Source of the DNA: a virus
Lineage: Duplodnaviria; Caudoviricetes
Length of the DNA: 64,000 nt
Virus record (IMG/VR): IMGVR_UViG_3300029288_000071
Span: 96,001-160,000 of that record
Reading direction: 5' to 3' (one strand)
Program-made: the position numbers and the translations under genes
Shown: piece by piece, positions 3,281 through 35,153 of the stretch
Numbering within the stretch: position 1 is the stretch's first letter
Layout: each line of letters opens with the position of its first letter
The notes under the pieces: generated by a model
Database searches by the model: none
What the model was told of the DNA's origin: nothing
Seen by the model: the letters and a program-made list of their open reading frames with translations, nothing else

Positions 3281-4888
3281 TTAGCCTACCAAATAACTTA
3301 AATCTTCACCTGCTACTACAAAAGGATTTTTATTTTGTCCTTTTCTAACATTTTCTTGTTGAATTGATGTATCTTCAACTGAATGTCTACCTTTTTCAAT
3401 ACTAATAGAATTTAATAGAGCTTCTGTTTGTAATATATCAGATGAAGTTAATCTTAAAGTAATATTTCTTACAAATAATCCAATAGCTAATGCCATTACT
3501 AAGTCATCATGTGTTTTTTCTGCTGCTTGAGCTCTAATTTGATTCCCAGTATTAACCCAAATAAATCCTTTAATTTCATCTAATAATCTTGATGAATGAA
3601 TAATATATTGTTTTTGTGTTAGAGTTTCAGCATATGAATTAATTACTAAAGGTCTGTTTTTAGGACCTGTAGTAAATCCTGGAATCTTATCAGGTCCCGG
3701 AATTGACCAATTTAAAGGATCAAAAAATAATTGTCCTTCTACTTTCTTTGACCAATACATCTTAGGATATTGAGAATCTAATACTCTTTGAATTGCTGCA
3801 TATCCAACGTTATTATTTTCACAAACAATCATTGCATTATTATATCTTCTTCCGACTTGAACAAGTAAATCACCAAATGTACTTGGATTTATTTTTCCTT
3901 TATATTCTGCTACTTGTTCCATATCTTCTACACAAGATACAATAATTGTAGAATAGTCTCCACCATCTCCTCTAGCAATATCTGAACTTAAAATGTAATT
4001 CTTTCCATATTCCATTTCTTTCCATATCCAGAAATTATGATCAAAAGCTTCTTTAGAAATTGGTTCTCGTATATAATTCTTTTCATACCATTCAATAGTA
4101 TCTGCATCAATAACAGTGTTTCCTGATTTTGCAAAATCACAACAGTATTCTTGAGCCCATTGAGCAGTTGTCATTGTAGCGCGTTCAGATTCTGCCCAAG
4201 CTTCATCTCTTTCAGGATGCAAACTCCAATGTAATTTTATAGGGAAAAAAGCTGCAACATCGTCAGATTGTCCTGATTCTGCTTTAACCCATTGCTCATG
4301 GAACCAGTTTCCAATACCTTTTGGAGTAGAAAGAATTACTGCAGATCCACCAGTTGCTAATGTAGGTCTAGCTGAAGTCCAAACTTCTTCAACTAATTTA
4401 TTTTTTATCATTGCAGCTTCATCAAATATCAATAAAGATAAAGCTTCAGATCTTGCTGTATCAACAGTTGTAGTAGAAGATTTAATTACTGATTGATTTT
4501 CTAATTGAATAGATTGTTGATTATCATTTGTTTGCGCTGGTACTAACCATTCAGGTACACTATTAAGAAACAATTTACATTTTCTGATAAGATTAGTTGC
4601 TACATTCCCTTTATTTGCAAGAATAAGAATTTCTTTAGCATTAAAAAAACAAGCTAACCACACACAATAAGCAGACATAAGAGTTGATAAACCCATTTGT
4701 CTGCCTTTTACAATAATAACAAATCTATTTTCTAACATTCTTTTTATTACGTTAGTTTGAAAATCATACAAACCAAAAGGTATAATACCACGGTCAGGAT
4801 GTTTAATACGTCCATATTTGTTAATAAAGTAACAAGGATCTTGTCTACATTTAGCTATTTCAGCTATTTGATCATTTGTTAATTGCAT
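3281..4888 (-). CDS. Terminase large subunit (T4 gp17-like)
   Basis: LYDFQ Q-motif, deviant Walker A KGRQMGLST, Walker B LLIFDEAA, STPKG coupling motif, nuclease motifs SSDIARGDGGDYS and HDDLVMALA. Confidence 0.95.
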   Translation of the reverse strand: MQLTNDQIAEIAKCRQDPCYFINKYGRIKHPDRGIIPFGLYDFQTNVIKRMLENRFVIIVKGRQMGLSTLMSAYCVWLACFFNAKEILILANKGNVATNLIRKCKLFLNSVPEWLVPAQTNDNQQSIQLENQSVIKSSTTTVDTARSEALSLLIFDEAAMIKNKLVEEVWTSARPTLATGGSAVILSTPKGIGNWFHEQWVKAESGQSDDVAAFFPIKLHWSLHPERDEAWAESERATMTTAQWAQEYCCDFAKSGNTVIDADTIEWYEKNYIREPISKEAFDHNFWIWKEMEYGKNYILSSDIARGDGGDYSTIIVSCVEDMEQVAEYKGKINPSTFGDLLVQVGRRYNNAMIVCENNNVGYAAIQRVLDSQYPKMYWSKKVEGQLFFDPLNWSIPGPDKIPGFTTGPKNRPLVINSYAETLTQKQYIIHSSRLLDEIKGFIWVNTGNQIRAQAAEKTHDDLVMALAIGLFVRNITLRLTSSDILQTEALLNSISIEKGRHSVEDTSIQQENVRKGQNKNPFVVAGEDLSYLVG

Positions 4889-6030
4889 TATTTCTTTTTA
4901 CCACCTGCTGTATAATGAGATTTATATCCCTTCTTTTTCATCCACCAAGCTAATGCATAGGGATTCATCTTTTCTAAAATAGCACATTCTTTTTCAAATT
5001 TCTCAGGATGTTTTTTCATTGCTTTAACAGTTCCAGAAAATCCGGGAGGACATGCTTCATTTTTCTTTTTAGCTTTTCTAGCAGCAGCCATTCTATTACT
5101 ATTTCTATTTCTGAGTGCTTGAGTTTCATTCCTTCTTTTAGCTTCATTTACTACTTCATCTTCTTTTTTCCCACACATTTCATCTAATTCTGCTAATTGA
5201 GCAGCTTCTAATTTTACATGTTGGATTGATTGAATATTAGCTATTTTAAATGCTCTTAATCCCTTTCCTAAAACGCCCACATAGACATTATCCCCACTTA
5301 TTTTTGTAAATCTACCAAAGTAAGTTTTAACTTCACCTGTTGAAGCTTTTTTGTAGCGCATTGCTGCTTCTGCTTTATCAGAAACAAGATTTTCTACTTC
5401 TTGCTTTGCTACTTCAGTTAAAACAGTTTCATGAATTACTTTTTTTAATGTTGATTTATTAATTTTCATTTTGTTTTCTAAAAGTTCATTCTCAAGTTTA
5501 TCATAATCTTTTTTAACTTGAGAGATAGGTTTATTATATTTTTTTGCTAAATCTTTATATTCTTCATCAGTAGCTCCTGAAAGATACAATTTTTTAAGTT
5601 CAGATTCATAAGATTCAATTAATTTTTTACTTTCCCATGTTATGGGTTTATTTAAGAAACTAGTTGGTAAATTTACCTTCATACCTGATACTGCTAAAGT
5701 AGCTGTATCTCCTAAAGCTGATAAAACTTTATATTTTTGTTCAGGTTTAATAAGTGATTGAACTCTAGCTGGAAGTTTTGATATTGCTTTCTGAACTATT
5801 GATACTTCATCACCTGAATCAATCATCTGACCTTGAGCACCAAGACCTTCTAATACTTCACCACGCAATGCTTTTTGAGCATAAATTCTTTCTTTATCAT
5901 CAAGTTTATCATAAATTTTTGTACTTTGCTTATACAATTCTTGTTTCAAATAAATATCTGAATTAGGTTTTGCTTCTAATTTTTTAAGTTTTCTAGCTAA
6001 TTCTATGTATTGATCTACTTCTTTTCTCAT
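4888..6030 (-). CDS. Putative virion/internal head protein, multi-module
   Basis: Glu/Lys-rich; internal MKINKSTLKKVIHE motif; WYL/SH3-like segment LRAFKIANIQSI. Confidence 0.5.
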   Translation of the reverse strand: MRKEVDQYIELARKLKKLEAKPNSDIYLKQELYKQSTKIYDKLDDKERIYAQKALRGEVLEGLGAQGQMIDSGDEVSIVQKAISKLPARVQSLIKPEQKYKVLSALGDTATLAVSGMKVNLPTSFLNKPITWESKKLIESYESELKKLYLSGATDEEYKDLAKKYNKPISQVKKDYDKLENELLENKMKINKSTLKKVIHETVLTEVAKQEVENLVSDKAEAAMRYKKASTGEVKTYFGRFTKISGDNVYVGVLGKGLRAFKIANIQSIQHVKLEAAQLAELDEMCGKKEDEVVNEAKRRNETQALRNRNSNRMAAARKAKKKNEACPPGFSGTVKAMKKHPEKFEKECAILEKMNPYALAWWMKKKGYKSHYTAGGKKK

Positions 6031-13447: not shown

Positions 13448-15388
13448 TTACTTTAAAAATTCATTAAGTTGTTCATCATAACAGTGAATCAATTTATTCT
13501 CAATTGCTACTTTATTTAATTCTAAACTATGTTCTTTACAAATTCTTATATAGTCTTCAATTTCAATTTTATTGTTTTCTTTACACCATTTAATTAATTG
13601 TTTTATGAGCTTAAGATGATTATTGATTATATCTTTAGCTCTTTCTTTTTGTTCTTGAAGCATAACTTCAATTAATTTATTTGTAGAATCAATGTCATAA
13701 TTCCAAGCTCCTGCATCATTTGGAGTTTTAGTCGTTATTCTAGATAAATTACCGTCCATTCCTAATCTGCGAATAAAAGATGAAGCATATTCAGTAGCTT
13801 GAGCTAAATCTTGTATGCTTCCAGCAGATCTATAATTATCTCCAAAAATTGTTTCTTCTAAGATTTGCCCTGCTAAACATATACAAATATCATTTTTCAT
13901 ATATATTTTATTTGAAACTCTATCATGAAAAGCAGTAAATCCATTATTTGTTATACGTGTAGAATTTATGTTTATTTGAGTTGGAGCACATTTATATAAA
14001 ACACTATAAACAATGCTGTGCCCTAATTCATGTACTGCAACTAATATTTTTTCATCTATAGATTTTTTCTTTTTGATAGATTCAATATCAAGTTTTATAG
14101 TTCTTTTTAAATCTCCACAAATTAGCTTATCATATTCATGATCAATAACTATAGATTGTAAATCGTCTTTCATTGAATAAAATAAGAAATATGGTAGATT
14201 ATTCTCTAATATTTGAGAAATTGTAGATAATACAGGTCGTACTCCTTGAGTTGGAAACACTCCATTTTTATAGATTAAATCGTAAATAGCATCTGTAAAA
14301 CTTATATCAATTTTAGTATTTTCTTTTACTCTTTTTGAAATTTCAAAACAATGATTTTTGATGATTGTTTGATAACTAGATTTGCTTAAAGTAGGATAAA
14401 TAATATGTGTATTTCCGAATCTAGAAATCTGTTCTGGCTTAAATTGTTTCATTAAAGATTTTTTAATTTCTACTATGTTAATTTTTTTAGAAAATTCATG
14501 ATATATGTCAGCATCCATTTCAACATCTTCTACTTCACCACTCATACTGAATGCTTCATCTAAATTTCCTGATATGAAAATTAACATTTTCTGATAATTA
14601 TCACCTTCATAAGTTTCATTTTTGTCGAAACTTCTTTGAAGCAAATCTAACCTTTCATCTGGAGATAGTTGCATTATTTCTTCAATTGTTAAATTAGACT
14701 TTAACAATCTCTTAAATTGTTTTGCTTTATAATAATATGTCTGATATTTGAACTGAGGTTTTTCTTTTGGTACTTCTGAATCTTCTATTTTTTCTATATC
14801 ATTGCTATTTAAAGCTTTAGATTTTCTTTTTCTTTTTTTAGGAATAGGATCATTATTTTTATGCCATAATGTGTATTCTTTGTCATAAAGTTCTTCCATT
14901 ATTAAAGAAAATATTTCTCTTCTATTGCTAGAATTTGATTGAAATTTTCCATCAGAAAGAAGCATCCAAATGTCATTAAAATATTCATTATCTCTGATCA
15001 TGTTTCCTTCTTCATCAATAGTTCTAAATCTTTGCATTTCATCTAGCAATAAAATACAAGGCTCTTTAGAATCTACATTTGTATTTTCAATGACATCTTG
15101 AATCTTTTTAACGTGTTCTTCTTTCATGTCAAGTTGAATTTCAATGAATTTATCATTAAATTCTAAAAATTTAACAAGCTTTCTAACTAAATCAGTTTTC
15201 CCCACTCCTGTTGTACCCCATAAAGAAATTATCATAGGTCTAGATTGTAATTCAGGCATGACATACCATATTTGAATGTTATTGACAATTTCATCTATGA
15301 TATTGTCTAAACCTACAAATTCATGTTTTAGAAAAACTTTAAGTTCTTCTAATTTTTCAAGCTTTTTTTGATAATTTTCATTTATCAT
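13448..15388 (-). CDS. Soluble AAA+ ATPase fused to M41 (FtsH-type) zinc peptidase
   Basis: Walker A GTTGVGKT, Walker B LLLDE, HELGH zinc motif, LAGQILEE, GSIQDLAQAT; no TM segment. Confidence 0.85.
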   Translation of the reverse strand: MINENYQKKLEKLEELKVFLKHEFVGLDNIIDEIVNNIQIWYVMPELQSRPMIISLWGTTGVGKTDLVRKLVKFLEFNDKFIEIQLDMKEEHVKKIQDVIENTNVDSKEPCILLLDEMQRFRTIDEEGNMIRDNEYFNDIWMLLSDGKFQSNSSNRREIFSLIMEELYDKEYTLWHKNNDPIPKKRKRKSKALNSNDIEKIEDSEVPKEKPQFKYQTYYYKAKQFKRLLKSNLTIEEIMQLSPDERLDLLQRSFDKNETYEGDNYQKMLIFISGNLDEAFSMSGEVEDVEMDADIYHEFSKKINIVEIKKSLMKQFKPEQISRFGNTHIIYPTLSKSSYQTIIKNHCFEISKRVKENTKIDISFTDAIYDLIYKNGVFPTQGVRPVLSTISQILENNLPYFLFYSMKDDLQSIVIDHEYDKLICGDLKRTIKLDIESIKKKKSIDEKILVAVHELGHSIVYSVLYKCAPTQININSTRITNNGFTAFHDRVSNKIYMKNDICICLAGQILEETIFGDNYRSAGSIQDLAQATEYASSFIRRLGMDGNLSRITTKTPNDAGAWNYDIDSTNKLIEVMLQEQKERAKDIINNHLKLIKQLIKWCKENNKIEIEDYIRICKEHSLELNKVAIENKLIHCYDEQLNEFLK

Positions 15389-15400
15389 TTTAATTCCTTT

Positions 15401-18400
15401 TTAAAATTGAATTTGTGAATTACCAGATGTTGTATCAATAGTAATTGTTTGATCTACAAAATCTTGTATTTCAGATACATGAGAGATTAATATTACATGT
15501 TCAAACAATATCTTCAATTGATTGATAAACTTATCAATTGAAGATATCCAATCTTTATCTAAAGTACCAAAAGATTCATCAATCATGAAAACATTACAAT
15601 GAGGGATATTTGATATTGAAGCTAGTGCAGCTCTAATTGCAATAGCTGAAATAGTTTTTTCCATTCCAGAACCTAATTCAATTGGATTTGAAGTACCATT
15701 TTCATAGATAATAGAGATTGGAATACTTTTCTTATCGTAATCTAAGCTAAATTTAATACTAAATGGGATATAATCACCAACAATTTTATGAATTTCATCA
15801 TTAATGATATCAATATAGGAAGAAACAATCATGTAAGGTAAGCCTTCTCTATGAACACATCTTTGATACAATTTGTAGTCATTACTATCTAATTCTAATT
15901 GATTCATTGTTTTGAGATCAGTTTCAGATTTAATTATATTGTTTTCTAATTCTGAAATTCTCTTGTTATGAGCTACAATGTTATAATCTACAGTATTTAC
16001 TATTTTATTTAAATTTATAATTTCAATCTCTTTTTCAGCAATGAGTTCAGAAATTTGAGCATTAGATTCTTTGATTTGTTTAATAGATTCTATAGTTTGT
16101 GCTTCTTTATTTTGTTCATCAAGAATAGCTTGAGCTTTATCTATTTGTAAAGCTAATTTTTCAATATTTAAGCTTCTAATTTTAATTTGATTTTCTAATC
16201 TCTGAATTTCTAAAATTTGATCTTTTATAATTTCTAATTCTTTATCTACATTACTGATAGGTATTATATCTAATTCAATTTTAGATTTTTTAACAATTAG
16301 CTTATTTTGTTCATTTTCAATTCTTTTCAATTCTTTTTTAAGTTTATCTGCTTCTTGAAAAAATTCACATGATTGACATGTATCAGTAGTTTCTGTCCAA
16401 GGTTGTCTCTCTAAAATTTCAACTCTAGATTTATCTTTTTTTAGTCCTAAATTAGAAACTCGAATATCAGATTCTACTTGTCGTAAATCGGTTGTTAATC
16501 TTTCTTTTTCTTTTAATTTTACTTGAAGCTCAGTTACTTTATTAGAAAGATTTAGTAATTTCATTCTTTCAATTTTTTTAGATTCTTCTTCTAATAGTTT
16601 TTCTTCACTTTGTTTTTGAACAATTAGTCCTGTATGTAAAGTTTCAATTTTTTCTTTATCAAAATTTGCAACTGCAATATCTTCTACTTCTTGAATCATT
16701 GTTTTAAGAACTGCATGTTGTATTTTGACTTGATCTAATTGAGTTATTGAATATTGTTTATCTTCTTCTAAATCAATTAAAGAATCATTAAGTTTTTCAA
16801 TTTCATCATGGTAATTTTTGATAAAAGTTGCATAGTCAATTTGTTTGAATTGTTTAAGCAATGTATCAAATTCATTTGTTAATCTATGAGCTTCATCATA
16901 TTGAAGTTTAAAAATATTAAGACCTAGAAATTTAGAAAGTAATTCAAGTCTAAAAGTTTCATCAAATCCAGATTCAAGAAAATAAGAAATCTTTCCTTGT
17001 GATGAAATATTAGAAACTACTATTTCATCAAAATTACCAATCAATTTTCTTATAATTTTATCTGTATCAGTTCTTGAATCTCCTGTTGCACTAGTCCATT
17101 TTTCATCTATATATTTTTCTAAAGTAACTTTTGTAGATGTACCATCACCAACTCTTTTTGAACTTCTAGTTATTTTATACAATACTCCATTTACTTCGAT
17201 AGTAATAAATGCTTTACAAGTATCAGCTTTATTGTTAATAATTTTTGTAATTTTTGACATTCTTGCAGATTTATTGAAAAGAACATAAAGAAATGTATCA
17301 ATAAAATTTGATTTACCACTTCTGTTTGGAGCAAATAAACCAGTAACTCCCTTAAGATTTTTGAAGTTTAAATGATTATTTTCTCCATAAGAAAAAGTAA
17401 AATCCCAATCAATTTCATGAACTTTCCAGAAATTAGGTTGCATAATTTCTTCATTTGAAATAGAATTGCGGATTTTATTATTAATTTTAAGAATGCGCTC
17501 TATTGTAATTGAATCAGTTTTGTCTAAAAATTTTGTAATTAAATCATTTTGAACAGTAATATCAGCAGTTGACTTGATTTTTTGAAATTGAAAAGCAGAT
17601 TCTTTTTTAGTTTGTTCATAATCTCTCTTAACTTCGAGAGCAATTGGATTATATTTTTGCCTTAATTCAAGTTCAATTTGTTTAATTTCAGAAACAGTAT
17701 ATGTAAAATTAGATAAAGTAAGACGGATAGAAGAATTTTTTGCAGGATTGTCAATAATAGGCATATTCTGCTTATCTACTTTGTAAGCAACTTTTAAATT
17801 ATAAAAAGCATTATCATTAGGAATTTGAACAAATTTTGGTTTTGAAGATAAACTATCTGTATTCCAAAGCAAATATCCTTTTTGTAGTCCTTCTGAATAA
17901 TCTTGCTGAATAAGAGATCCACAATACCAAACATTCATTTTTCCTATTTGTTGTAATCTATGAATATCACCTAAAAATGCTGCATCATAATTTTTAAACA
18001 TAATAGATGCATCATATCCAGTATCTTTAAATGTAAAGTTTGTTTCAGAAACTGAACCTGAGATATTCCCATGAAATAAAGCTATAAATTTTCCTTTTTT
18101 AGTATTGAATGTAGGTTTTGAAGTAACAACATCCATTATATCATAATTTATCGGAAAATTTGGTTCATCTAAACATGAAAAAACTCCATAAACTACATCA
18201 TCAGAAATAGGATATAATCCTGATTGATCATATACAATAATTTGATACTTTGAATCAGTGATATTATTAACTATTGGTGTTATAGAATCTAATCTTTCAT
18301 TATTTTTGAGATTTACATCATGATTTCCAATGATTACATCAAGAGGAGCAATATTAGCTAAATTTCTAAAAAAATCAGAACCTAAATCTACTGCTTCAGG

Positions 18401-18559
18401 AGATAGAATACTCTTACTATGAAAAATATCTCCCACTAAAACAATTCTATCTACTTTTTGTTCTTTTAATGATTGATATAGTTTTTCAAAAATTATTCTA
18501 TATTCTTCATGTCTCTTATATAGCAAAATATGAATATCTGCTAAATGTGCTATTATCAT
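15401..18559 (-). CDS. Fused Mre11/SbcD nuclease - Rad50/SbcC ATPase (gp47-gp46 fusion)
   Basis: DIH, GDIFH, GNHD, FHG and GDIH phosphoesterase motifs, then APNRSGKS Walker A, coiled coil with CQSC hook, GSGME signature, IDESFGTLD, LISH. Confidence 0.93.
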   Translation of the reverse strand: MIIAHLADIHILLYKRHEEYRIIFEKLYQSLKEQKVDRIVLVGDIFHSKSILSPEAVDLGSDFFRNLANIAPLDVIIGNHDVNLKNNERLDSITPIVNNITDSKYQIIVYDQSGLYPISDDVVYGVFSCLDEPNFPINYDIMDVVTSKPTFNTKKGKFIALFHGNISGSVSETNFTFKDTGYDASIMFKNYDAAFLGDIHRLQQIGKMNVWYCGSLIQQDYSEGLQKGYLLWNTDSLSSKPKFVQIPNDNAFYNLKVAYKVDKQNMPIIDNPAKNSSIRLTLSNFTYTVSEIKQIELELRQKYNPIALEVKRDYEQTKKESAFQFQKIKSTADITVQNDLITKFLDKTDSITIERILKINNKIRNSISNEEIMQPNFWKVHEIDWDFTFSYGENNHLNFKNLKGVTGLFAPNRSGKSNFIDTFLYVLFNKSARMSKITKIINNKADTCKAFITIEVNGVLYKITRSSKRVGDGTSTKVTLEKYIDEKWTSATGDSRTDTDKIIRKLIGNFDEIVVSNISSQGKISYFLESGFDETFRLELLSKFLGLNIFKLQYDEAHRLTNEFDTLLKQFKQIDYATFIKNYHDEIEKLNDSLIDLEEDKQYSITQLDQVKIQHAVLKTMIQEVEDIAVANFDKEKIETLHTGLIVQKQSEEKLLEEESKKIERMKLLNLSNKVTELQVKLKEKERLTTDLRQVESDIRVSNLGLKKDKSRVEILERQPWTETTDTCQSCEFFQEADKLKKELKRIENEQNKLIVKKSKIELDIIPISNVDKELEIIKDQILEIQRLENQIKIRSLNIEKLALQIDKAQAILDEQNKEAQTIESIKQIKESNAQISELIAEKEIEIINLNKIVNTVDYNIVAHNKRISELENNIIKSETDLKTMNQLELDSNDYKLYQRCVHREGLPYMIVSSYIDIINDEIHKIVGDYIPFSIKFSLDYDKKSIPISIIYENGTSNPIELGSGMEKTISAIAIRAALASISNIPHCNVFMIDESFGTLDKDWISSIDKFINQLKILFEHVILISHVSEIQDFVDQTITIDTTSGNSQIQF

Positions 18560-18981
18560 TTATATCCCATTCTTTCCATTATTTTTGATAATTTTTCTTT
18601 CATTTCTTTTTGACTCATTATATCTGCATCTAATAATTGTTTAAATATTTCTTCAAAAACTTCAGTTACTATTTCTTCTTTTAATTCAGCTTTAATTTCA
18701 GCTTTAATATTACGTTTAAAAAATTCTTCTTCATGTACATTAGGATGATTTAAACCAGTAGGTCCAGTAGATATACCATAAGTAGATGCACCAATATTTG
18801 AAGAAAAAGATTGTATCCCACTTGTTGAAGGAGGAAGTAGCACATTTGGTACATTAGCACAAGAACTGCTATATGATATTAATGAATTTGATTTACCGTA
18901 TGAATTGATATATGATTTTAAGTCATCAAGCTCTTCTGATTCTTTTTCTTTAATATTAAATAATTTTTTAAATATATTCAT
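18556..18981 (-). CDS. Tagged mini-protein with a capsid-like helix (tag variant IMERMGY)
   Basis: KAEIKAELKEEIVTEVFEEIF aligns with the MCP-like helix of 43652..44050; GPTGL; ends KIMERMGYK. Confidence 0.55.
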   Translation of the reverse strand: MNIFKKLFNIKEKESEELDDLKSYINSYGKSNSLISYSSSCANVPNVLLPPSTSGIQSFSSNIGASTYGISTGPTGLNHPNVHEEEFFKRNIKAEIKAELKEEIVTEVFEEIFKQLLDADIMSQKEMKEKLSKIMERMGYK

Positions 18982-19919
18982 TCTAATATCCTCCTTAGAA
19001 CATCAGATTGCGTAAATCTCTTTCTATTCTTAAGCGCTTGAAAAAATTCTTTTTGAGTTAATTCTCCGGGATCTTTTTTATTGTATTCAATGATAAAAGT
19101 ATTTATTCCCCAATCAGTCAATAGCTTTCCTGCAGTAATAGTTCCTTGTTGACCTGGTTTATCATTATCTAACATTAAATAAACATTTGGTTTATAATTC
19201 ATGATCTTTTTGAATAGCTCACTGTCACTTGCTAAAGCTGATCCCAAAAGAGGTATAGAATTTTGTTTAATATTTATTGCATCAAAAGGACCTTCTACTA
19301 AAATTATAGGTCTATCCCATGTAATGAATAATTCATTGAAAATTATATCTTTTTTTGTAGTTTGAGTATGAACATATTTCATAATATCAGGAGAATTATA
19401 AATTGATCTTGCAACAAAAAAATCAACTCTACCTTTTGAATTATAGCTAGGAACAATTACTCTATCTCTGTATTTTCCTTCTTCACAATAATGAATATTA
19501 AAAGTTCTAATAGTTCTATAGTTTATACCTCTAGAATTAAGAAATGCTATTGATTTTTGTGCTATAACAGAAGGAATACAATTTCTTAATATTTGTGCAC
19601 CCAAAGGAAGTTTAATAGTTTCTTTAAATACAACTTCATTTTTATCTGCAAGTAAACTTCTTAAATCAGTTTCAAATTCAACACCAGATTCTAATCTATT
19701 CCATTCTTTCCAAGCAGCTTCTCCAGCATAAGATCTAATTAATTTTGATACATACCCACCATAATTGCAAATCCAACAATGAAATAGCTTTTTTTCTAAA
19801 CTAATTACAAGCTTTCTTTTATGATGTTGGCACTGAGGACAGAAAATAGTAAATTCTTTTGAATTTGATACATTATCTGGGAATATTTTGTGAAGTAGTT
19901 CAATTTGTTGTTGATTCAT
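18978..19919 (-). CDS. DNA primase (DnaG/gp61-like)
   Basis: CPQC..HCWIC zinc finger; TOPRIM LVEGPFDA and LDNDKPG. Confidence 0.92.
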   Translation of the reverse strand: MNQQQIELLHKIFPDNVSNSKEFTIFCPQCQHHKRKLVISLEKKLFHCWICNYGGYVSKLIRSYAGEAAWKEWNRLESGVEFETDLRSLLADKNEVVFKETIKLPLGAQILRNCIPSVIAQKSIAFLNSRGINYRTIRTFNIHYCEEGKYRDRVIVPSYNSKGRVDFFVARSIYNSPDIMKYVHTQTTKKDIIFNELFITWDRPIILVEGPFDAINIKQNSIPLLGSALASDSELFKKIMNYKPNVYLMLDNDKPGQQGTITAGKLLTDWGINTFIIEYNKKDPGELTQKEFFQALKNRKRFTQSDVLRRILE

Positions 19920-20439
19920 TTTTCACGCCATATAGGGCAATGATATACGAGTCCGCCATATCATAACATTCAGGAATTATTTTTCCTTTATTTCTACCTT
20001 TATTTTTTAAGGGCCAAGTGAAGAGCTTACAATTAGAATTTATCCACTTGAAAACTTCTTCTTTTGCATTTACTCCTTTAGGATAACGACCTATTCCTAT
20101 AATTGATTTTCTAGCAGATGATGCCATTATTTCTATAGGAAAAGTATTAAATTTTTTACATAGTGTAAATAAAAAAGCACCATTAAAACGCAATATTGTG
20201 CTAAGTACTTGTGCAGAAGATAATCCTTTACTAAACATCATGTTAGGTTGTTCAGCATAAATTTTATCAACTGTAAAGTCTTTAAGTTTTTTATCGAATT
20301 GTTCAATTGCAGAGTTAAGTTTTTCAAATAAAGTATCACCAACTGGTTTAATATAATCAATTAAAATTAAGTTTTTGTTTTCATCTAAAATAGTTAAGCC
20401 TACAGTAGAAGTACTTATGTCAAGCCCTAAAATATTCAA
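19900..20439 (-). CDS. RuvC-like Holliday junction resolvase
   Basis: ILGLDISTSTVG, IYAEQP, YDMADSY. Confidence 0.85.
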   Translation of the reverse strand: MNILGLDISTSTVGLTILDENKNLILIDYIKPVGDTLFEKLNSAIEQFDKKLKDFTVDKIYAEQPNMMFSKGLSSAQVLSTILRFNGAFLFTLCKKFNTFPIEIMASSARKSIIGIGRYPKGVNAKEEVFKWINSNCKLFTWPLKNKGRNKGKIIPECYDMADSYIIALYGVKNESTTN

Positions 20440-20852
20440 ACTTCGTATCCGATTTTCTTCATTAGCTTAGTGATTTCATCTATTGATCCAAATATTTGTT
20501 GTTCAAATTGTATAATTCGTTTAATTTGTATAGAATGATGTGGAGATGTGCAATAATAAGCTGTTTTTAATAAAGGAACATCAACATCTGAAAAATCAAA
20601 TTCATCAAAAAAATATTTGTTATTTTGTTTTGACCGAACGATGTGATCATTACTATGTAATTGATTGTAAGTTATTATTTGAATTTTTTTGGGATCTGAA
20701 CAATCATATTTCTTTTTTATTAAATCTCGCATGCTATAACTTGGAACAACAATAGTGGCTGTTCCATTTCCTGATAAAACCCATTGATGAACAGCTTGCA
20801 TCATACGGTGAGTTTTTCCACTTTGTCTTGGAGAGATATCAAGTTCCATCAT
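20436..20852 (-). CDS. Mini terminase-ATPase-like protein with LMKKIGY tag
   Basis: SPRQSGKT Walker A, FFDEFDF Walker B, CTSP motif III; ends ITKLMKKIGYEV. Confidence 0.65.
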   Translation of the reverse strand: MMELDISPRQSGKTHRMMQAVHQWVLSGNGTATIVVPSYSMRDLIKKKYDCSDPKKIQIITYNQLHSNDHIVRSKQNNKYFFDEFDFSDVDVPLLKTAYYCTSPHHSIQIKRIIQFEQQIFGSIDEITKLMKKIGYEV

Positions 20853-20853
20853 T

Positions 20854-21327
20854 TTATAATTCAGTTTCTAATTCTATTCCATTTTCATTAATATTTTTTT
20901 CAACTTTAACTTTAATAGGTTCAATTTTTTCAGGTATCTCAGCTATACTTAATTCAGAAAGTGAATCTGATTTTACCTTTCTAATGAAAGGTGATTTTGT
21001 TATTAAATCTAATTCAGCAAGAATTTTTGTATAATCAGTTTTAGTTTGTTTTTCTTTTGGATCTTTATTAGCTTCATCTTCAGTTTGTCGTAATTTTTGC
21101 ATTACTTGAGCTAATTTTACTAAAATATCAGCTTGTCTACTAGCTTGCTCAAGCCAACGGTCTGCCATTTGAGAAAGAACTACTAAATCTCCTTTATTAC
21201 TCAGCATTGCAGTTTCCATGTGTTGGTACAGTTTATTTGCTTTATTGCGATTCTCTTCAGTTTCATCCATGATTCTTTGGATTAACTTAATAATATCTTC
21301 TTTTTCGTATCCTGTGATATTTGTCAT
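20854..21327 (-). CDS. Hypothetical coiled-coil protein
   Basis: Helical; could be a small terminase-like protein but this is unsupported. Confidence 0.5.
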   Translation of the reverse strand: MTNITGYEKEDIIKLIQRIMDETEENRNKANKLYQHMETAMLSNKGDLVVLSQMADRWLEQASRQADILVKLAQVMQKLRQTEDEANKDPKEKQTKTDYTKILAELDLITKSPFIRKVKSDSLSELSIAEIPEKIEPIKVKVEKNINENGIELETEL

Positions 21328-23002: not shown

Positions 23003-23037
23003 AAAAAATGAACCCGGCAAAATCTCTACCGGGTTCA
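23003..23037 (-). terminator. Rho-independent terminator
   Basis: Stem TGAACCCGG/CCGGGTTCA followed by a T-run on the minus strand. Confidence 0.8.
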
Positions 23038-28595: not shown

Positions 28596-29638
28596 AAATT
28601 TTTTAACCTTGCGTTAATTCGATATTGTGAAATATTCGTTGCATTCATGTAAGACATTGAACTTTGTAATCCTGTCTTGAATCTTTTTATAACCTTAGCA
28701 ACAGAATCATCAACATAAGGAACTAACGTTTCATTACCTTCATTAAAATCTGGTTTTTCATTGCTAAATTCTTGTTGTACACTAAATGATGCTGCACCTC
28801 TATAAGTCTTATACTTTGAACCATCTTCTAACTTAAGAACATTTCCTGGAGTTTCTTTATATCCTGCAAATATTTTTCCTGCCATTACTAAATCAGCACC
28901 AGCAACTAAAGCTTTACACATATCAGATGGAGTTCTAATTCCTCCATCAGCAATTATTAGAGTATTTTTTTGAACAGACTTACATTCTAATACAGATTCA
29001 AGAGTAGGCATATACACACCCGTTTCAGTTTTTGTAGAACAAACTGAGCCGCCACCTATGCCTACTCGGATAGCATCTACTCCTAAATTCTGTAAAAATT
29101 CAAATCCTTCTTTTGTAGCTACATTCCCAGCAATAAGATATACTTTACCTGTATAATTTATAGGCTCTGTTTCTCCAATACGTAAATTTGTTATTGCTAA
29201 TGAATCTTCATATAAACTTACGCATTTCCTTATCCATTTAATCGCTTCTTCAATTTGTTTATTTGCTCCATTAGCTGTATCTAGACAAAAAATTCTGCAA
29301 CCCGCAACAAATAATTCTTTAAATCTTTCTTTATAGTCTCCCGTAATTCCTATAGCACAAGCTATAGTTTTTAGTTCTACTCCTAAATGCGCCGTATTGT
29401 TTGTATAGTACTCTTTTCTTTGTTCTTCAATAGATTGAAATCTATGAATGATTCCCAGAGCACCAATTCCTGCTAATCTATAAGACATTTCTCCATTACA
29501 TACATCGGGCATAGGAGAAGCTATAATCGGAACATCTAATTTTGTTCCGAAACAATTTATTGATGTGTCACAATCTTTTCTGTGTTTTATTTCTGAGATA
29601 ACTCTTGGTATTAATGTTGTATTATTGAATGTTTTCAT
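28592..29638 (-). CDS. IMP dehydrogenase / GMP reductase family (no CBS domains)
   Basis: PIIASPM, IAGNVAT, GIGGGSVCST catalytic Cys loop, IIADGGIR, YRGAAS. Confidence 0.9.
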   Translation of the reverse strand: MKTFNNTTLIPRVISEIKHRKDCDTSINCFGTKLDVPIIASPMPDVCNGEMSYRLAGIGALGIIHRFQSIEEQRKEYYTNNTAHLGVELKTIACAIGITGDYKERFKELFVAGCRIFCLDTANGANKQIEEAIKWIRKCVSLYEDSLAITNLRIGETEPINYTGKVYLIAGNVATKEGFEFLQNLGVDAIRVGIGGGSVCSTKTETGVYMPTLESVLECKSVQKNTLIIADGGIRTPSDMCKALVAGADLVMAGKIFAGYKETPGNVLKLEDGSKYKTYRGAASFSVQQEFSNEKPDFNEGNETLVPYVDDSVAKVIKRFKTGLQSSMSYMNATNISQYRINARLKNL

Positions 29639-29903
29639 ATCCTATATTTTTCATTAAAAATTTAATTTTATCAAAATTAGATTTTTTATAACTTTTTAAA
29701 CTTTTGATATCATTGAGTGATACATCAAAAGGTACTCCATCATGTTCAATATTACCATCTGAAATACCTATCAATGTTACTTTGTTTTCTTTATATCTAG
29801 CAATAACAAAATTGTGCCAATCATCTTCAGGATTTACCCAATAAATTTTAACTGGATTGCCGATATTGTTTTCTATGATTCTATCAATCTGTTTTAATTC
29901 CAT
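29622..29903 (-). CDS. Small protein with LMKNIGY tag
   Basis: Ends DKIKFLMKNIGYENIQ. Confidence 0.6.
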   Translation of the reverse strand: MELKQIDRIIENNIGNPVKIYWVNPEDDWHNFVIARYKENKVTLIGISDGNIEHDGVPFDVSLNDIKSLKSYKKSNFDKIKFLMKNIGYENIQ

Positions 29904-31952: not shown

Positions 31953-34900
31953 TTATCCTTTTATTACTTTTATATTTGCAAAACTTCTTGTAGAATATCC
32001 ATACTTGTTATTATCAAGATTTGTCATGACTAATAAACTTCCCACATTAAAATCTAATGGTATTTGTTGAGCCCAGACTTTAACATCCATAGATTTTTCT
32101 TCATCTGCAATAGTAATGACATAATAGTTTTTATTTGTTTTAGTTTTTCTCAATAATACATTTTGTAAAATACCTGCAACAGTTCTAGTCATTGTATCAG
32201 CTTGTCCAACTTTAGTAACTTTATATTTTGTAAGAATTTCATTATATTTTGAAATGGGATGTTCTCTTAAATAAAATCCTAAATATTTTGTTTCAAAAGA
32301 AGTTTTTTCAGAATCAAAATAATCATCTTCTATTTTAAAAGTTGGATTGTCTTTCTTTTTCTTTTCCCTCAGTTGATAGTAATAATTCAAAATTGATTTT
32401 CTATTATTATTCCAAGAATCTAATACACCTAACTGGATAATTGGTTCTATTACTCTTTTTGAGATTTTTTGTTTAACTACTTTTTGCAAAAAATCTTCTA
32501 AAGAATCAAAAGGTCTACAATTAATGAGTTTTTGAACTTCATCTTTACCACACCCTTTAATAATTTTAAATCCAGTTATTATATTATTTTTTTCATCAAG
32601 AGTAAACTCATAACTAGACTTATTTATGTCAAAAGGAATAATATTAATTTGATTCTTTTTGGCTTCTTTTATCATTTCGGGAATATTTTCTTGAGAAATT
32701 CTATTAAGTAAAGAAGTAAAATATTCAAAAGGATAATAGACTTTTAGCCACATTTGTTGATAAGCATTTAGAGCATATCCGGCTGCATGTGCTGCACAAA
32801 AACTATACTCTGAATATTTTGCCATTTGATCTAACAATAAGTCAATTTGTTGTTCATCTAATCCGTTTTTTTCTGCACCAAGTTTAAATTTTTCTAATAC
32901 TTTATCAAAATCATCTTTTCTTTCTGAATCTTGATTTGCTTTATGAAGTAACTTCATTACTTTTCTTGCTTTATCAGCTTCAGCTAAACTAAATCCACCA
33001 ATTTCTCTCAAAATACCCATTACTTGTTCTTGATAAGTAATAACTCCATAAGTTTTTGAAAGAATATTTTCCATTTTAGGATGAATATACTTTATTTTTG
33101 AAGGATTATTCTTATATTCAATATATTGAGCTACAAATCCAGCATCAATACTTGCAGGTCGGTATAAGCTATTAATAGTAGTGATGTCTTCAAAATTTGA
33201 GGGTTTTGATTGTTGAAGAATTGATCTCATACCTGGAGAACCAAATTGGAAGATATCAATTGTATCTGCTTGTTGAAATTTTTCATATACTTTTGGATCT
33301 TCTAATGGATCAGTTTCCATTTTTAATGTAACATTAATTCCTGTTTTTTGCTGAATCAATTTTAATGTGTCATTGATAATAGAACAAGTATTTAATCCCA
33401 ACAAATCAAGTTTAATGAGACCAATTTCAGAAACTTCTCTTTCATCTCCACCTTCTTGTAAAGCAGTCATGTATTGATCTTTTAATCTAATAATTGGAAT
33501 AAAATCATATAATTTTCCAGGAGAAATAACAGTTCCTGATGCATGAGAGCCAGCATTTCTTACTTGGTCTTCTAATTTTGTTCCCCATTTAAGAAAATAA
33601 TCTTCATGATTTTTAATAAATTGCTTAAGATTATCTGGAAGGTTTTTTACAGATAAAGCTTGTAGATTTTCTTTTAATGATTTTTGATCATCAAATATTT
33701 TTGATAATTCATTTGTTAAAGCAAAATCAAAATCATTTACTCTACTTAAATCTCGAACTATAGATTTTGCTCCAAATTTAATGTAATTTGCAATATGAGC
33801 TACTGATTGATAACCATACTCTTTTTTGAGTTCTTCTTCAATCATTTTTTGTTCATCAGAAGAAAAATCACAATCTATATCACAAGGATCTTTTCTTTCA
33901 GGGTTTAAAAATCTTTCAAAATATAGATTATTTTTAATTGGGTCTAGATTTGTAATTTTTAAACAAAAAGATACTAATGAACCCACTGCAGAACCTCTAC
34001 CTGCTCCAGTTCTTCCACCTAATTCTGCTATTTTTTCAATAACAGATTTTATCAATAAAAAATATCCAGCAAATCCTTTTTTCTTGATAATGTCCATTTC
34101 ATATTTGAGTTGTTCTAAATATCTTTTTTCTTTAGGGATTCTTTGTTCATCTATTCTATTTTTAAATCCTTCTACACATAGTTTTGTAAAATAACTTTCA
34201 TTTGTAAAGCCATCAGGAATTTTGCATTTAGGAAAGTTGAATTGATAGAATGGAATTTCAATATTTACTTTAGAATTTATTTCTAATGTATTTTCAAGCC
34301 ATTCTTCTACTTGAGAAGTAGAAACTCCATATTTTTTAGAAGTTTCAATGATTTGATCATATGTCTTTACATAAAATCCGTGTTGATTTATCAACCAAAC
34401 ATTAAAATCAGGTTTAGTCAAATCCTCAAAAGTAGCTCTTTGATTAATCATCATCTTTACTTTTTGAAGATACCAATCTTCTTCATCTACATAGTGGGCA
34501 TCTAATCCAACTATAACTTTAATATTTTCACTTTTACCAATTTCAATAAGTGCATCATTATAATCTTTTTGAAAATTGTCATCTTCCAAAAATTGAACTT
34601 CAAGATAAAAATCATCTTTGAATATCGATTTATATTTTTGAACAAGCTCTACAAAGCCTTTATAATCACTAAAACGAATTTTATTTGCCCATTGAGAGCC
34701 CTGACAAGCTGTAGTTACAATGATATTTCCAGCTTTTTCAAAAATTAACTCATTTTTTGTTCTAGGTTTGTAGTAAAAACCATTCATTACAGCTTCACCA
34801 GAAATGTGAACTATATCTTTATATCCCTGATAATTTTTTGCTAATAAAATGATATGACTATTAAATTTATCAAAATCTTTGAATTGAATTTCTTCTTCTG

Positions 34901-35153
34901 GATTTGGTTCTTTATCTTTTCCTTGATTATCTCTATTATCATTAAGATAAGCTTCAATTCCTATAATTGGATTAATGTTTTGTTTCTTACATTCTTTATA
35001 GAACTTTAAAGAGCTAGCCATATTGCCATGTTCGGTTAAAGATAAACCCGGCATTCCAAGCTCTTTAGCTTTTTTGATATAATTCTCAACAGTCATAGAG
35101 CCATCACCAAATGAATAGCAACTGTGAGCATGGATTGCTGAATAAGTTTTCAT
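31953..35153 (-). CDS. dnaE: DNA polymerase III alpha subunit (DnaE)
   Basis: PHP domain HAHSCYS/TEHGN, GRGSAVGSLV, PCDIDCDF, IKLDLLGL, YQEQVM, YSFCAAHA; no intein evident. Confidence 0.96.
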   Translation of the reverse strand: MKTYSAIHAHSCYSFGDGSMTVENYIKKAKELGMPGLSLTEHGNMASSLKFYKECKKQNINPIIGIEAYLNDNRDNQGKDKEPNPEEEIQFKDFDKFNSHIILLAKNYQGYKDIVHISGEAVMNGFYYKPRTKNELIFEKAGNIIVTTACQGSQWANKIRFSDYKGFVELVQKYKSIFKDDFYLEVQFLEDDNFQKDYNDALIEIGKSENIKVIVGLDAHYVDEEDWYLQKVKMMINQRATFEDLTKPDFNVWLINQHGFYVKTYDQIIETSKKYGVSTSQVEEWLENTLEINSKVNIEIPFYQFNFPKCKIPDGFTNESYFTKLCVEGFKNRIDEQRIPKEKRYLEQLKYEMDIIKKKGFAGYFLLIKSVIEKIAELGGRTGAGRGSAVGSLVSFCLKITNLDPIKNNLYFERFLNPERKDPCDIDCDFSSDEQKMIEEELKKEYGYQSVAHIANYIKFGAKSIVRDLSRVNDFDFALTNELSKIFDDQKSLKENLQALSVKNLPDNLKQFIKNHEDYFLKWGTKLEDQVRNAGSHASGTVISPGKLYDFIPIIRLKDQYMTALQEGGDEREVSEIGLIKLDLLGLNTCSIINDTLKLIQQKTGINVTLKMETDPLEDPKVYEKFQQADTIDIFQFGSPGMRSILQQSKPSNFEDITTINSLYRPASIDAGFVAQYIEYKNNPSKIKYIHPKMENILSKTYGVITYQEQVMGILREIGGFSLAEADKARKVMKLLHKANQDSERKDDFDKVLEKFKLGAEKNGLDEQQIDLLLDQMAKYSEYSFCAAHAAGYALNAYQQMWLKVYYPFEYFTSLLNRISQENIPEMIKEAKKNQINIIPFDINKSSYEFTLDEKNNIITGFKIIKGCGKDEVQKLINCRPFDSLEDFLQKVVKQKISKRVIEPIIQLGVLDSWNNNRKSILNYYYQLREKKKKDNPTFKIEDDYFDSEKTSFETKYLGFYLREHPISKYNEILTKYKVTKVGQADTMTRTVAGILQNVLLRKTKTNKNYYVITIADEEKSMDVKVWAQQIPLDFNVGSLLVMTNLDNNKYGYSTRSFANIKVIKG

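What the first reader, a model, noticed from the sequence alone, without database searches (positions are those of the whole stretch)
20436..20852. Miniature terminase-like ATPase whose Walker A differs from the phage's own terminase
The 138-aa ORF keeps PRQSGKT, FDE and TSP in terminase order but has no nuclease domain. The real terminase at 3281 has a deviant KGRQMGLST. The mini copy looks more like canonical T4-type terminases (SRQLGKT), as expected for a decoy against terminase-sensing Avs systems or an inhibitor of other phages' motors.
Basis: partly seen in the sequence, partly recalled or inferred. Interest (0 to 1): 0.72.

Follow-up and report, generated by a model that had tools for sequence, protein, structure and literature searches.

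The report
Stand-alone mini terminase-type ATPase, tagged
A 138-residue phage gene encodes only the ATP-binding core of a DNA-packaging (terminase-type) enzyme. It belongs to a large, unnamed phage family whose nearest described relative, T4 Vs.8, sets off the bacterial immune sensor Avs2, and what the protein does for the phage is still untested.

Summary
The ORF and its three motifs are real: PRQSGKT (8-14), FFDEFD (81-86) and TSP (102-104). The phage's own terminase does carry KGRQMGLST.

The gene is not a one-off copy of that terminase. It belongs to a phage-only family: 56 clusters at E<1e-3, proteins of 111-399 aa, no Pfam or NCBIfam model, and PHROG relatives of unknown function.

In a controlled profile panel the family scores best against T4-type terminase ATPase domains (P-SSM2 gp17 91%, KVP40 gp17 73% with all three motifs in register) and T4 Vs.8 (87-95%). 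Thymidine kinase is the runner-up at 75%. Helicases, RecA-like, AAA+ and kinase P-loops score below 5%, apart from one SF2-like ORF of P-SSM2 at 21.5%. Fold searches cannot separate terminase from SF1/SF2 helicase lobes.

None of nine gene neighbourhoods is a packaging module; here the gene is translationally coupled to a RuvC-like resolvase and a primase. This copy lacks the family's C-terminal domain and instead ends in the genome-wide LMKKIGY tag.

The decoy idea is untested. Vs.8 activates EcAvs2 (bioRxiv 10.64898/2026.04.30.721860) rather than blocking it.

The scan has noted terminase-derived small proteins on other phage DNA before (e1-5353421, e1-396450).

The parts
20436..20852 (-). 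ORF of 138 aa (P0001): stand-alone minimal ASCE/RecA-like ATPase domain plus a C-terminal tag
   Evidence: family; AF2 model with the alignment has pLDDT 85.8, five strands flanked by helices
20811..20831 (-). Walker A, P8-RQSGKT-14, with the P-loop Arg-Gln typical of T4-type terminases
   Evidence: K13 invariant, R9 and G12 at least 90%; aligned with PRQTGKS of P-SSM2 gp17 and PRQLGKT of KVP40 gp17
20595..20612 (-). Walker B with catalytic Glu, F81-FDEFD-86
   Evidence: D83, E84, F85, D86 at least 90% conserved; aligned with FLDEFAF (P-SSM2 gp17) and YVDECAF (KVP40 gp17)
20541..20549 (-). T102-S-P104, counterpart of the terminase/helicase coupling motif (family consensus YYxTTP)
   Evidence: aligned with LTSTP of KVP40 gp17
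20439..20480 (-). C-terminal helix DEITKLMKKIGYEV, this genome's recurrent tag, standing where other family members have a domain of about 60 aa
   Evidence: 31 matches of the tag pattern in the genome's ORFs against 1.3 in shuffles, nearly all at C-termini of small minus-strand ORFs; helix 124-133 in the model
19900..20439 (-). downstream RuvC-like Holliday-junction resolvase (179 aa); its start overlaps the P0001 stop by 4 nt
   Evidence: phrog_159 E 7.2e-12; coordinates
18978..19919 (-). DnaG-type primase in the same gene train
   Evidence: Toprim_2, DNAG_N, Zn_ribbon_DnaG; phrog_47 E 2.1e-50
20854..21327 (-). upstream 157-aa ORF of unknown function; its stop lies 1 nt before the P0001 start
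   Evidence: no significant family
23009..23037 (-). terminator-like 13-bp hairpin; no further minus-strand terminator-like site down to 18400, so P0001 lies inside one long co-directional unit

Best explanation
P0001 is a stand-alone, minimal terminase-type (Vs.8-like) ATPase domain. It belongs to a large, unnamed, phage-only family and is an accessory protein, not part of the packaging motor.

Shown: it keeps the full nucleotide-hydrolysis set in the order and register of T4-type terminases. These are the Walker A Lys/Thr with a P-loop Arg-Gln, Walker B Asp plus catalytic Glu, and the TSP coupling motif. It has nothing else except a C-terminal helix that about 30 other small proteins of this phage also carry.

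Inferred: it binds Mg-ATP through K13/T14/D83 and hydrolyses it with E84. Being a single RecA-like lobe, it probably works as a dimer or oligomer, so that a second copy completes the site; a natural tandem fusion of two such domains exists (P0067). Its C-terminal LMKKIGY helix probably docks it on the unknown partner shared by the tagged proteins. It is made together with the replication and recombination genes.

Because it displays the ATP-site face of a terminase, terminase-sensing receptors should be able to see it, as shown experimentally for T4 Vs.8 with EcAvs2. Whether that contact is its purpose (anti-defence) or a liability, and what its cellular target is, remain open.
For: - Family: 56 clusters at E<1e-3, all small proteins, with a coherent LEISxR[QR]xGKTxRL / FFDEFDF / GYYxTTP signature. 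Atlas clusters are 69-100% viral.
- Terminase-type affinity with controls: hhalign P-SSM2 gp17 91-93%, Vs.8 87.5% (94.6% against a 7-sequence Vs.8 alignment), KVP40 gp17 73% with three motifs in register, Cygsa01 TerL 55%, T4 gp17 35%. UvsW gives 4.9%, an SF2-like ORF of P-SSM2 21.5%, and gp41, RecA-like, AAA+, SbcC and AAA_28/33 at most 1.3%.
- Best match of the family profile in whole genomes: gp17 in P-SSM2 (E 5.8e-5) and vs.8 in T4 (E 0.0037). The Vs.8 HMM's only hit at E<1 in this genome is P0001.
- Lowest E-values in Pfam and PHROG scans are to Terminase_6N (8.6e-5) and phrog_2 TerL (1.4e-11).
- Not packaging: none of nine neighbourhoods is a packaging module; they hold replication, recombination and nucleotide-metabolism genes.
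- Tandem fusion: P0067.
- Tag. Similar endings occur in relatives from other phages: P0043, P0037, P0017, P0025.
- Vs.8 biology: bioRxiv 10.64898/2026.04.30.721860.
Against: - Homology to terminases is weak in absolute terms. P0001 alone has no Pfam hit. Only 3 of 55 members touch Terminase_6N, while 12 touch AAA_14 and 10 touch TK.
- The family profile found no terminase among PDB sequences at E<=10, but did find TK and SF2 helicases.
- The fold ranks NS3, Rep and PhoH2 (Z 11.2-11.7) above T4 gp17 (Z 9.9).
- The Vs.8 link rests on the Walker A-Walker B stretch and a shallow Vs.8 alignment. Vs.8 has an N-terminal extension of about 90 aa and lacks the TTP motif.
- ATP hydrolysis, oligomerisation and tag binding are all inferred.
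Confidence: 0.55

Rival explanations
1. Protective decoy or inhibitor. The mini-ATPase is made early and binds terminase-sensing receptors (Avs1-3, Upx) without activating them, or it poisons the packaging motors of competing phages.
For: - It exposes a canonical T4-type ATP site, whereas the phage's own TerL has a deviant one.
- Its nearest described relative, Vs.8, is predicted to sit in the EcAvs2 pocket and is toxic with EcAvs2; the authors raise an anti-defence role.
- The family is patchy, fast-evolving and found in accessory regions.
- In this phage it carries the tag shared with mini-proteins reported to hold capsid, portal and protease fragments. A relative, P0037, is fused to a gp23 fragment (Pfam Gp23 2e-9, phrog_138 7.7e-10).
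Against: - No experiment or computation here shows binding to any sensor.
- The only data for a relative show activation of Avs2, the opposite of protection.
- Strict conservation of the catalytic Glu and the coupling motif suggests selection for hydrolysis, which a passive decoy would not need.
Confidence: 0.1
2. Replication or recombination accessory ATPase that works with the neighbouring nucleases: an energy-supplying or loading partner for the RuvC-like resolvase, the primase and SbcCD. Any terminase resemblance is only shared ancestry.
For: - The gene has a 4-nt overlap with the RuvC-like gene and sits in one gene train with primase and SbcCD, with no terminator-like site between.
- Relatives lie next to the clamp and clamp loader (Cygsa01), between the DNA polymerase and exonuclease/endonuclease VII (Friunavirus), beside PDDEXK and RNaseH-like genes, and near gp41/UvsW.
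Against: - No neighbour is conserved across the nine contexts.
- A relative of the RuvC-primase pair (L002) has no P-loop gene upstream.
- Other contexts are nucleotide, NAD or 7-deazaguanine metabolism.
- The protein has no recognisable DNA-binding element.
Confidence: 0.15
3. Thymidine-kinase-like or other nucleotide-metabolism phosphotransferase built on the same alpha/beta core and unrelated to terminases.
For: - TK is the runner-up in the profile panel (75%, 83 columns).
- 10 of 55 members touch Pfam TK.
- TK1 structures score Z 10.0-10.2, and Foldseek ranks TK at 3-4.
- Several relatives sit among dUTPase, RNR, MazG, deoxyribosyltransferase and FolE/QueD genes.
Against: - There is no zinc lasso or other acceptor-binding domain, and P0001 lacks even the family's C-terminal domain.
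- The P-loop Arg-Gln and the TTP motif are terminase-like, not TK-like.
Confidence: 0.08
4. Decaying remnant or mis-called ORF with no function.
For: It is among the shortest members and has lost the C-terminal domain.
Against: - All catalytic residues are intact, it is tightly coupled within an operon, and other short forms exist (134, 137 and 111 aa).
- A conserved tag replaces the lost domain.
Confidence: 0.02

Closest known systems
Phage T4 Vs.8 (NP_049732, 219 aa). bioRxiv 10.64898/2026.04.30.721860 describes it as an uncharacterised ATPase-like homologue of the terminase ATPase domain that is toxic with EcAvs2.
   Same: - Small stand-alone protein of a T4-like phage with a terminase-style Walker A (GRQSGKS) and Walker B, encoded among early accessory genes.
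- It is the best T4 match of the family profile (E 0.0037).
- hhalign gives 87.5-94.6% from Walker A to Walker B.
- P0001 is the only hit at E<1 of a Vs.8 HMM in this genome.
   Different: - Vs.8 has an N-terminal extension of about 90 aa and a Cys-rich C-terminal part, and it lacks the YYxTTP motif and the tag.
- The relationship is distant and supported only across the N-terminal half.
- Avs2 activation was not tested for P0001.
ATPase domain of T4-type large terminases (gp17; Pfam Terminase_6N, PHROG 2)
   Same: xRQxGK[ST] Walker A, hhhhDE[FC]xF Walker B and [ST][ST]P coupling motif in the same order and register, with the same RecA-like core (T4 gp17 Z 9.9; Atlas Terminase_6N clusters TM 0.65-0.72).
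   Different: - About half the size of the terminase ATPase domain.
- No nuclease domain.
- No Pfam match for P0001.
- Not in a packaging module.
- No detectable similarity to this phage's own TerL.
Type II thymidine kinase (TK1; T4 tk)
   Same: A P-loop alpha/beta core of similar size with GK[ST]xxL and DExxF (hhalign 75%; Z 10.0-10.2).
   Different: No lasso/zinc substrate domain, and a terminase-like P-loop Arg-Gln and TTP motif.
N-terminal RecA-like lobe of SF1/SF2 helicases (NS3, Rep, Hel308, UvsW) and PhoH2
   Same: These are the best fold matches (Z 10.2-11.7), sharing motifs I, Ia-like, II and III.
   Different: There is no second RecA lobe. Sequence-profile affinity is low (UvsW 4.9%, SF2-like ORF 21.5%).
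Stand-alone terminase-ATPase paralogues noted earlier in this scan (coliphage 186 W-like genes; about 70-aa terminase-derived proteins)
   Same: The same general kind: a phage keeps an extra, isolated piece of the terminase ATPase.
   Different: Those genes lie between the terminase and portal genes or are much shorter. I did not compare their sequences with this family.

Membership tests
Large terminase, T4 type (Terminase_6N + nuclease) | Walker A with P-loop Arg-Gln (xRQxGK[ST]) | tested here: met
   PRQSGKT at 8-14; R9 at least 90% and K13 100% conserved in the family
Large terminase, T4 type (Terminase_6N + nuclease) | Walker B/catalytic Glu and [ST][ST]P coupling motif in terminase order and register | tested here: met
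   hhalign against KVP40 gp17 aligns all three motifs over 107 columns; P-SSM2 gp17 aligns from Walker A to Walker B
Large terminase, T4 type (Terminase_6N + nuclease) | Match to Pfam Terminase_6N at or above the curated cut-off | tested here: not met
   No Terminase_6N hit for P0001 at E<=10; 3 of 55 members at E<=0.1, best 8.6e-5; in the Cygsa01 genome, Terminase_6N finds TerL but not the family member
Large terminase, T4 type (Terminase_6N + nuclease) | C-terminal RNase H-like nuclease domain | tested here: not met
   138 aa, single domain; no relatives of 448 aa or more
Large terminase, T4 type (Terminase_6N + nuclease) | Gene located in the packaging/head module | tested here: not met
   It lies between an HD hydrolase and RuvC-like, primase and SbcCD genes; none of nine relatives' contexts is a packaging module
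T4 Vs.8-like stand-alone terminase-ATPase homologues | Small stand-alone protein with terminase-like Walker A and B | tested here: met
T4 Vs.8-like stand-alone terminase-ATPase homologues | Sequence homology to Vs.8 over the whole domain | tested here: inconclusive
   hhalign 94.6% but only 77 columns (Walker A to Walker B) and a 7-sequence Vs.8 alignment; HMM E-values 0.0012-0.1
T4 Vs.8-like stand-alone terminase-ATPase homologues | Vs.8 N-terminal extension and Cys-rich C-terminus | tested here: not met
   Absent from P0001 and from the family consensus
T4 Vs.8-like stand-alone terminase-ATPase homologues | Activation of, or binding to, Avs2 | not testable with these tools
   Known only for Vs.8, from co-expression toxicity
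Thymidine kinase type II (TK1) | C-terminal lasso/zinc domain that binds the nucleoside | tested here: not met
   No such domain or CxxC pairs in P0001; in the long forms the C-terminal part is helical
SF1/SF2 helicases | Two tandem RecA-like lobes (motifs I-VI) | tested here: not met
   Only one lobe is present; a tandem form exists in one relative, P0067, but both of its halves are of the same mini type
This genome's set of C-terminally tagged small proteins | C-terminal [LIMV][LM]x[KR][IM]GY helix | tested here: met
   LMKKIGY at 130-136, two residues from the C-terminus; 31 matches in the genome against 1.3 in shuffles

The most novel reading that the evidence does not exclude
The mini-ATPase could be one bait in a phage-encoded 'bait plus common handle' system against pattern-recognition receptors. 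In this reading, small proteins that display the most conserved surfaces of hallmark proteins are made early and bind Avs-type sensors. Those surfaces would be the terminase ATP site here, and capsid, portal and protease fragments in other tagged ORFs. A relative (P0037) combines the ATPase with a gp23 fragment in one chain. The shared LMKKIGY helix would then deliver the complex to a common neutralising partner, for example the phage's own FtsH-like AAA protease at 13448-15388.
Probability: 0.05. Interest if true: 0.9.

Novelty: new variant of a known kind. Interest (0 to 1): 0.55.

Why it matters
Terminase-sensing receptors (Avs1-3, Upx) are among the most widespread bacterial anti-phage sensors. 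Why some phages carry extra, isolated terminase-like ATPases is an open question raised in 2026 with T4 Vs.8.

This locus shows that such mini-ATPases form a much larger and more diverse phage family than Vs.8 alone. Members occur in T4-like, ViI-like and phiKMV-like phages. The core is conserved and looks catalytically competent, while the C-terminal attachments vary: a small domain, a genome-wide tag, or a capsid-protein fragment.

That gives a ready panel of natural variants for testing. The open question is whether these proteins are triggers, decoys or enzymes. The panel could also be used to find what the shared tag binds.

Tried and rejected
- Single-sequence AF2 gave an unusable model (pLDDT 32.7).
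- Homodimer plus ATP co-fold: no verdict (score 0.00), so it counts neither for nor against oligomerisation.
- No DNA-level or close protein relatives: megablast and tblastn of P0001 against phage genomes, the word-indexed protein search and viral contigs.
- P0001 and the family profile against PDB sequences gave no terminase, only weak SNF2, UvrB, NS3 and TK hits.
- NCBIfam and PADLOC gave nothing meaningful.
- hhalign of the family against the phage's own TerL, and against a 7-sequence alignment of its clade, was not significant.
- I could not identify which two members give the phrog_2 hits (best 1.4e-11). Thirty members scanned individually showed at best 0.0022.
- I tested whether the family's C-terminal domain is homologous to the genome's tagged mini-proteins. 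There were 14 hits at E<1 against 5-7 in reversed or shuffled controls, so I rejected it as compositional.
- A 640-aa ORF (genome 74753-76675) has a weak FFDYFD...YKST resemblance (E 0.0098) but no Walker A, so I did not pursue it.
- A search for UvsW relatives to build a control profile found nothing.
- A sliding-clamp-binding role for the tag: large ORFs, including the PHP-type polymerase, do not end in the tag, so nothing supports it.

Full report
**Observation**

The window is bases 96001-160000 of a 207-kb IMG/VR phage record, estimated 91% complete. ORF 20436-20852 on the minus strand encodes 138 residues.

The terminase at 3281-4888 is real: Terminase_6N E 1.5e-11 and phrog_2 E 3.7e-46. 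It reads VKGRQMGLST. The same K-G-R-Q-x-G-[LI]-S-T pattern appears in the five related terminases recovered with their N-termini from viral contigs, so it is the norm of that terminase clade.

**It belongs to a family and is not a private copy**

- phmmer against 1.84 billion cluster representatives found 56 proteins at E<1e-3, all 134-255 aa. A profile search added more, up to 399 aa.
- The 55-sequence alignment has the consensus LEISxR[QR]xGKTxRL ... FFDEFDF ... GYYxTTPxxxR. K13 is invariant, and R9, G12, R16, D83, E84, F85, D86, Y99 and Y100 are at least 90% conserved.
- The family has no Pfam or NCBIfam model. Its PHROG relatives (5437, 2586, 1488) are of unknown function.
- Its ESM Atlas clusters are 69-100% viral.
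- No relative of 448 aa or more was found.
- Most members have a further helical C-terminal domain of about 60 aa. P0001, P0016, P0028 and a 111-aa Friunavirus protein are core-only forms.
- One relative, P0067, is a tandem duplication whose first P-loop has lost the Arg.

**Fold**

With the alignment, AlphaFold2 gives a confident model (pLDDT 85.8): five strands flanked by helices, followed by two C-terminal helices.

- The exhaustive structural search ranks N-terminal lobes of SF2 and SF1 helicases first (Z 10.9-11.7), with PhoH2 at 11.2. TK1 scores 10.0-10.2, UvsW 10.2 and the T4 gp17 ATPase domain 9.9.
- Atlas searches put Terminase_6N fragments and SNF2/ResIII lobes at the same TM of 0.65-0.75.
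- Foldseek on the PDB gives KaiC, RecA and TK at E of about 1e-3.

The fold therefore says "helicase/terminase-class RecA-like core" and cannot discriminate further. This fits the literature: the terminase coupling motif is shared with helicases and translocases (PMC3012670).

**Sequence-profile tests**

Per-member scans are mixed. AAA_14 is touched by 12 of 55 members, TK by 10 and Terminase_6N by 3. The lowest E-values, however, are to Terminase_6N (8.6e-5) and phrog_2 TerL (1.4e-11).

Searching whole model genomes with the family profile was more telling:

- In P-SSM2 the best match is gp17 (E 5.8e-5).
- In KVP40 gp17 is among the matches (E 0.0115).
- In T4 the best matches are vs.8 (E 0.0037) and tk (E 0.014).

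I then ran one hhalign panel with identical settings:

| Target | Probability |
|---|---|
| P-SSM2 gp17 | 91% |
| T4 Vs.8 | 87.5% |
| T4 tk | 75% |
| KVP40 gp17 | 73% |
| Cygsa01 TerL | 55% |
| T4 gp17 | 35% |
| SF2-like ORF | 21.5% |
| UvsW | 4.9% |
| gp41, RecA-like, FtsH-like, SbcCD, AAA_28, AAA_33 | at most 1.3% |
| the phage's own TerL | 0.7% |

The KVP40 alignment spans 107 columns with Walker A, Walker B and the S/T-T-P motif all in register. Against a 7-sequence Vs.8 alignment the probability is 94.6% over 77 columns.

As calibration, that same shallow Vs.8 profile reaches only 22% against T4 gp17, although the literature treats Vs.8 as a terminase homologue. So this family is at least as terminase-like as Vs.8.

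Against this, the profile found no terminase among PDB sequences at E<=10, and TK stays a close runner-up.

**The Vs.8 connection**

The source is bioRxiv 10.64898/2026.04.30.721860. It reports the following:

- Vs.8 is an uncharacterised ATPase-like protein with Walker A and B motifs homologous to the T4 terminase ATPase domain.
- It is modelled in the same Avs2 pocket as a terminase ATPase domain, with a bridging ATP.
- EcAvs2 is activated by the isolated ATPase domain of several terminases.
- The authors call the function of such non-terminase activators open and suggest they could be anti-defence proteins.

But the only experimental datum for a relative is activation, not protection.

**Context**

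In the window the gene lies in a co-directional train: HD hydrolase, a 118-aa membrane ORF, a 157-aa ORF, P0001, RuvC-like resolvase, primase, a tagged 141-aa ORF, a fused SbcCD and an FtsH-like protease.

- The gap before P0001 is 1 nt, and P0001 overlaps the RuvC-like gene by 4 nt.
- A strong minus-strand terminator-like hairpin lies at 23037-23009, with none after it down to 18400.

Relatives sit in these places:

- upstream of the clamp and clamp loader in Pseudomonas phage Cygsa01;
- between the DNA polymerase and exonuclease/endonuclease VII in a Friunavirus;
- beside PDDEXK and RNaseH-like genes, near gp33, gp59 and gp32;
- next to dUTPase;
- between a deoxyribosyltransferase-like gene and MazG, near RNR and PolB;
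- in FolE/QueD clusters;
- near gp41 and UvsW;
- beside transketolase-like and NADAR genes.

No neighbour is conserved, and none of these neighbourhoods is a packaging module. A relative of the RuvC-primase pair has no P-loop gene upstream. This pattern fits an accessory early or middle gene better than a core replication factor or a packaging component.

**The tag**

P0001 ends in DEITKLMKKIGYEV. The pattern [LIMV][LMIF]x[KRQN][IML]G[YT] occurs 31 times in the genome's ORFs against 1.3 in shuffled proteins. Nearly all occurrences are at the C-termini of small minus-strand ORFs. This confirms notes by other readers.

- In P0001 the tag stands where other members have their C-terminal domain.
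- Family members from other phages end similarly: P0043 ...LMRKIGYNI, P0037 ...WLDRLGI, P0017 ...LYRIGG, P0025 ...YRCGM.
- The P0037 contig holds two more such motifs.
- P0037 also carries a gp23 capsid-protein fragment (Pfam Gp23 2e-9; phrog_138 7.7e-10, residues 185-234). It lies two genes downstream of a 124-aa ORF matching the tail-sheath C-terminal domain.

What the tag binds is unknown. I found no support for a clamp-binding role, nor for homology between the family's C-terminal domain and the tagged proteins.

**Reading**

- Shown: a conserved, apparently catalytically competent, single-lobe ATPase of terminase-type sequence signature, stand-alone, encoded outside the packaging module and carrying this phage's common tag.
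- Inferred: ATP hydrolysis; action as a dimer or oligomer (from the tandem fusion; the co-fold gave no verdict); tethering through the tag; visibility to terminase sensors (by analogy with Vs.8).
- Unknown: its target and its benefit to the phage.

I give 0.55 to the identity-and-mechanism statement. The rivals get 0.15 for a dedicated recombination/replication partner, 0.10 for the decoy or inhibitor reading, 0.08 for a TK-like enzyme and 0.02 for a remnant.

**Novelty**

The kind of thing, an isolated terminase-ATPase-like protein in a phage, has been known since the Vs.8 preprint and the phage 186 W-type genes noted earlier in this scan. This broad family is new as far as I could find in papers and libraries. 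So are its minimal 110-residue core, its placement in replication and nucleotide-metabolism regions, and its variable C-terminal attachments.

Noticed in passing
whole genome; in the window e.g. 18556-18981, 29622-29903, 43652-44484, 55735-56259: The C-terminal tag [LIMV][LM]x[KR][IM]GY occurs 31 times against 1.3 expected, almost only on small minus-strand ORFs. It is already the subject of other notes of this scan.
   Followed up: partly
L010:8001-8768 (P0037), L010:7442-7816, L010:1742-2476, L010:8765-9226: In another T4-like phage contig (NCBI GCA_048632895.1) a family member is fused to a gp23 capsid fragment and ends in WLDRLGI. A 124-aa ORF two genes upstream matches the tail-sheath C-terminal domain. 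Two further ORFs carry tag-like motifs (FMRKMGY, YLERLGI). The tag and the hallmark-fragment phenomenon are therefore not confined to this genome.
   Followed up: partly
protein P0017, residues 135-157: After its ATPase core this relative has EYNEFGRRVASII...DFEIERV. This resembles the conserved ExNxxG nuclease motif region of P-SSM2 gp17 (11 of 23 identical). It is not statistically significant (domain E 0.35).
   Followed up: partly
L020:6001-7200 (P0067) and L009:6001-6879 (P0076): A tandem-duplicated form (399 aa, first P-loop degenerate) and a 292-aa form both lie inside FolE/QueD (7-deazaguanine-type) gene clusters.
   Followed up: no
window 3281-4888; L013-L017: The terminase clade of this phage conserves a deviant Walker A, K-G-R-Q-x-G-[LI]-S-T, with the lysine displaced upstream. 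L013, from JGI sample 3300037067, is 84% identical. The tagged relative P0043 comes from the same sample.
   Followed up: partly
window 4888-6030: The 380-aa ORF immediately upstream of the terminase ends in ...AWWMKKKGYKSHYTAGGKKK, a tag-like variant on a large protein.
   Followed up: no
genome 74753-76675 (21 kb before the window; L012): A 640-aa ORF shows a weak match to the family's Walker B-to-TTP stretch (FFDYFD...YKST; E 0.0098) but has no Walker A and no informative Pfam hit.
   Followed up: partly
window 13448-15388 and 15401-18559: The phage encodes an FtsH-like protein (AAA plus ClpB_D2-small plus Peptidase_M41) and a single-chain SbcD-SbcC fusion of 1052 aa, directly downstream of the primase operon.
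   Followed up: no
window 31953-35153: A 1066-aa ORF starts with a PHP-domain-like HAHSxYSxxDG, which suggests a DnaE-type rather than a gp43-type replicase. I judged this by eye only.
   Followed up: no
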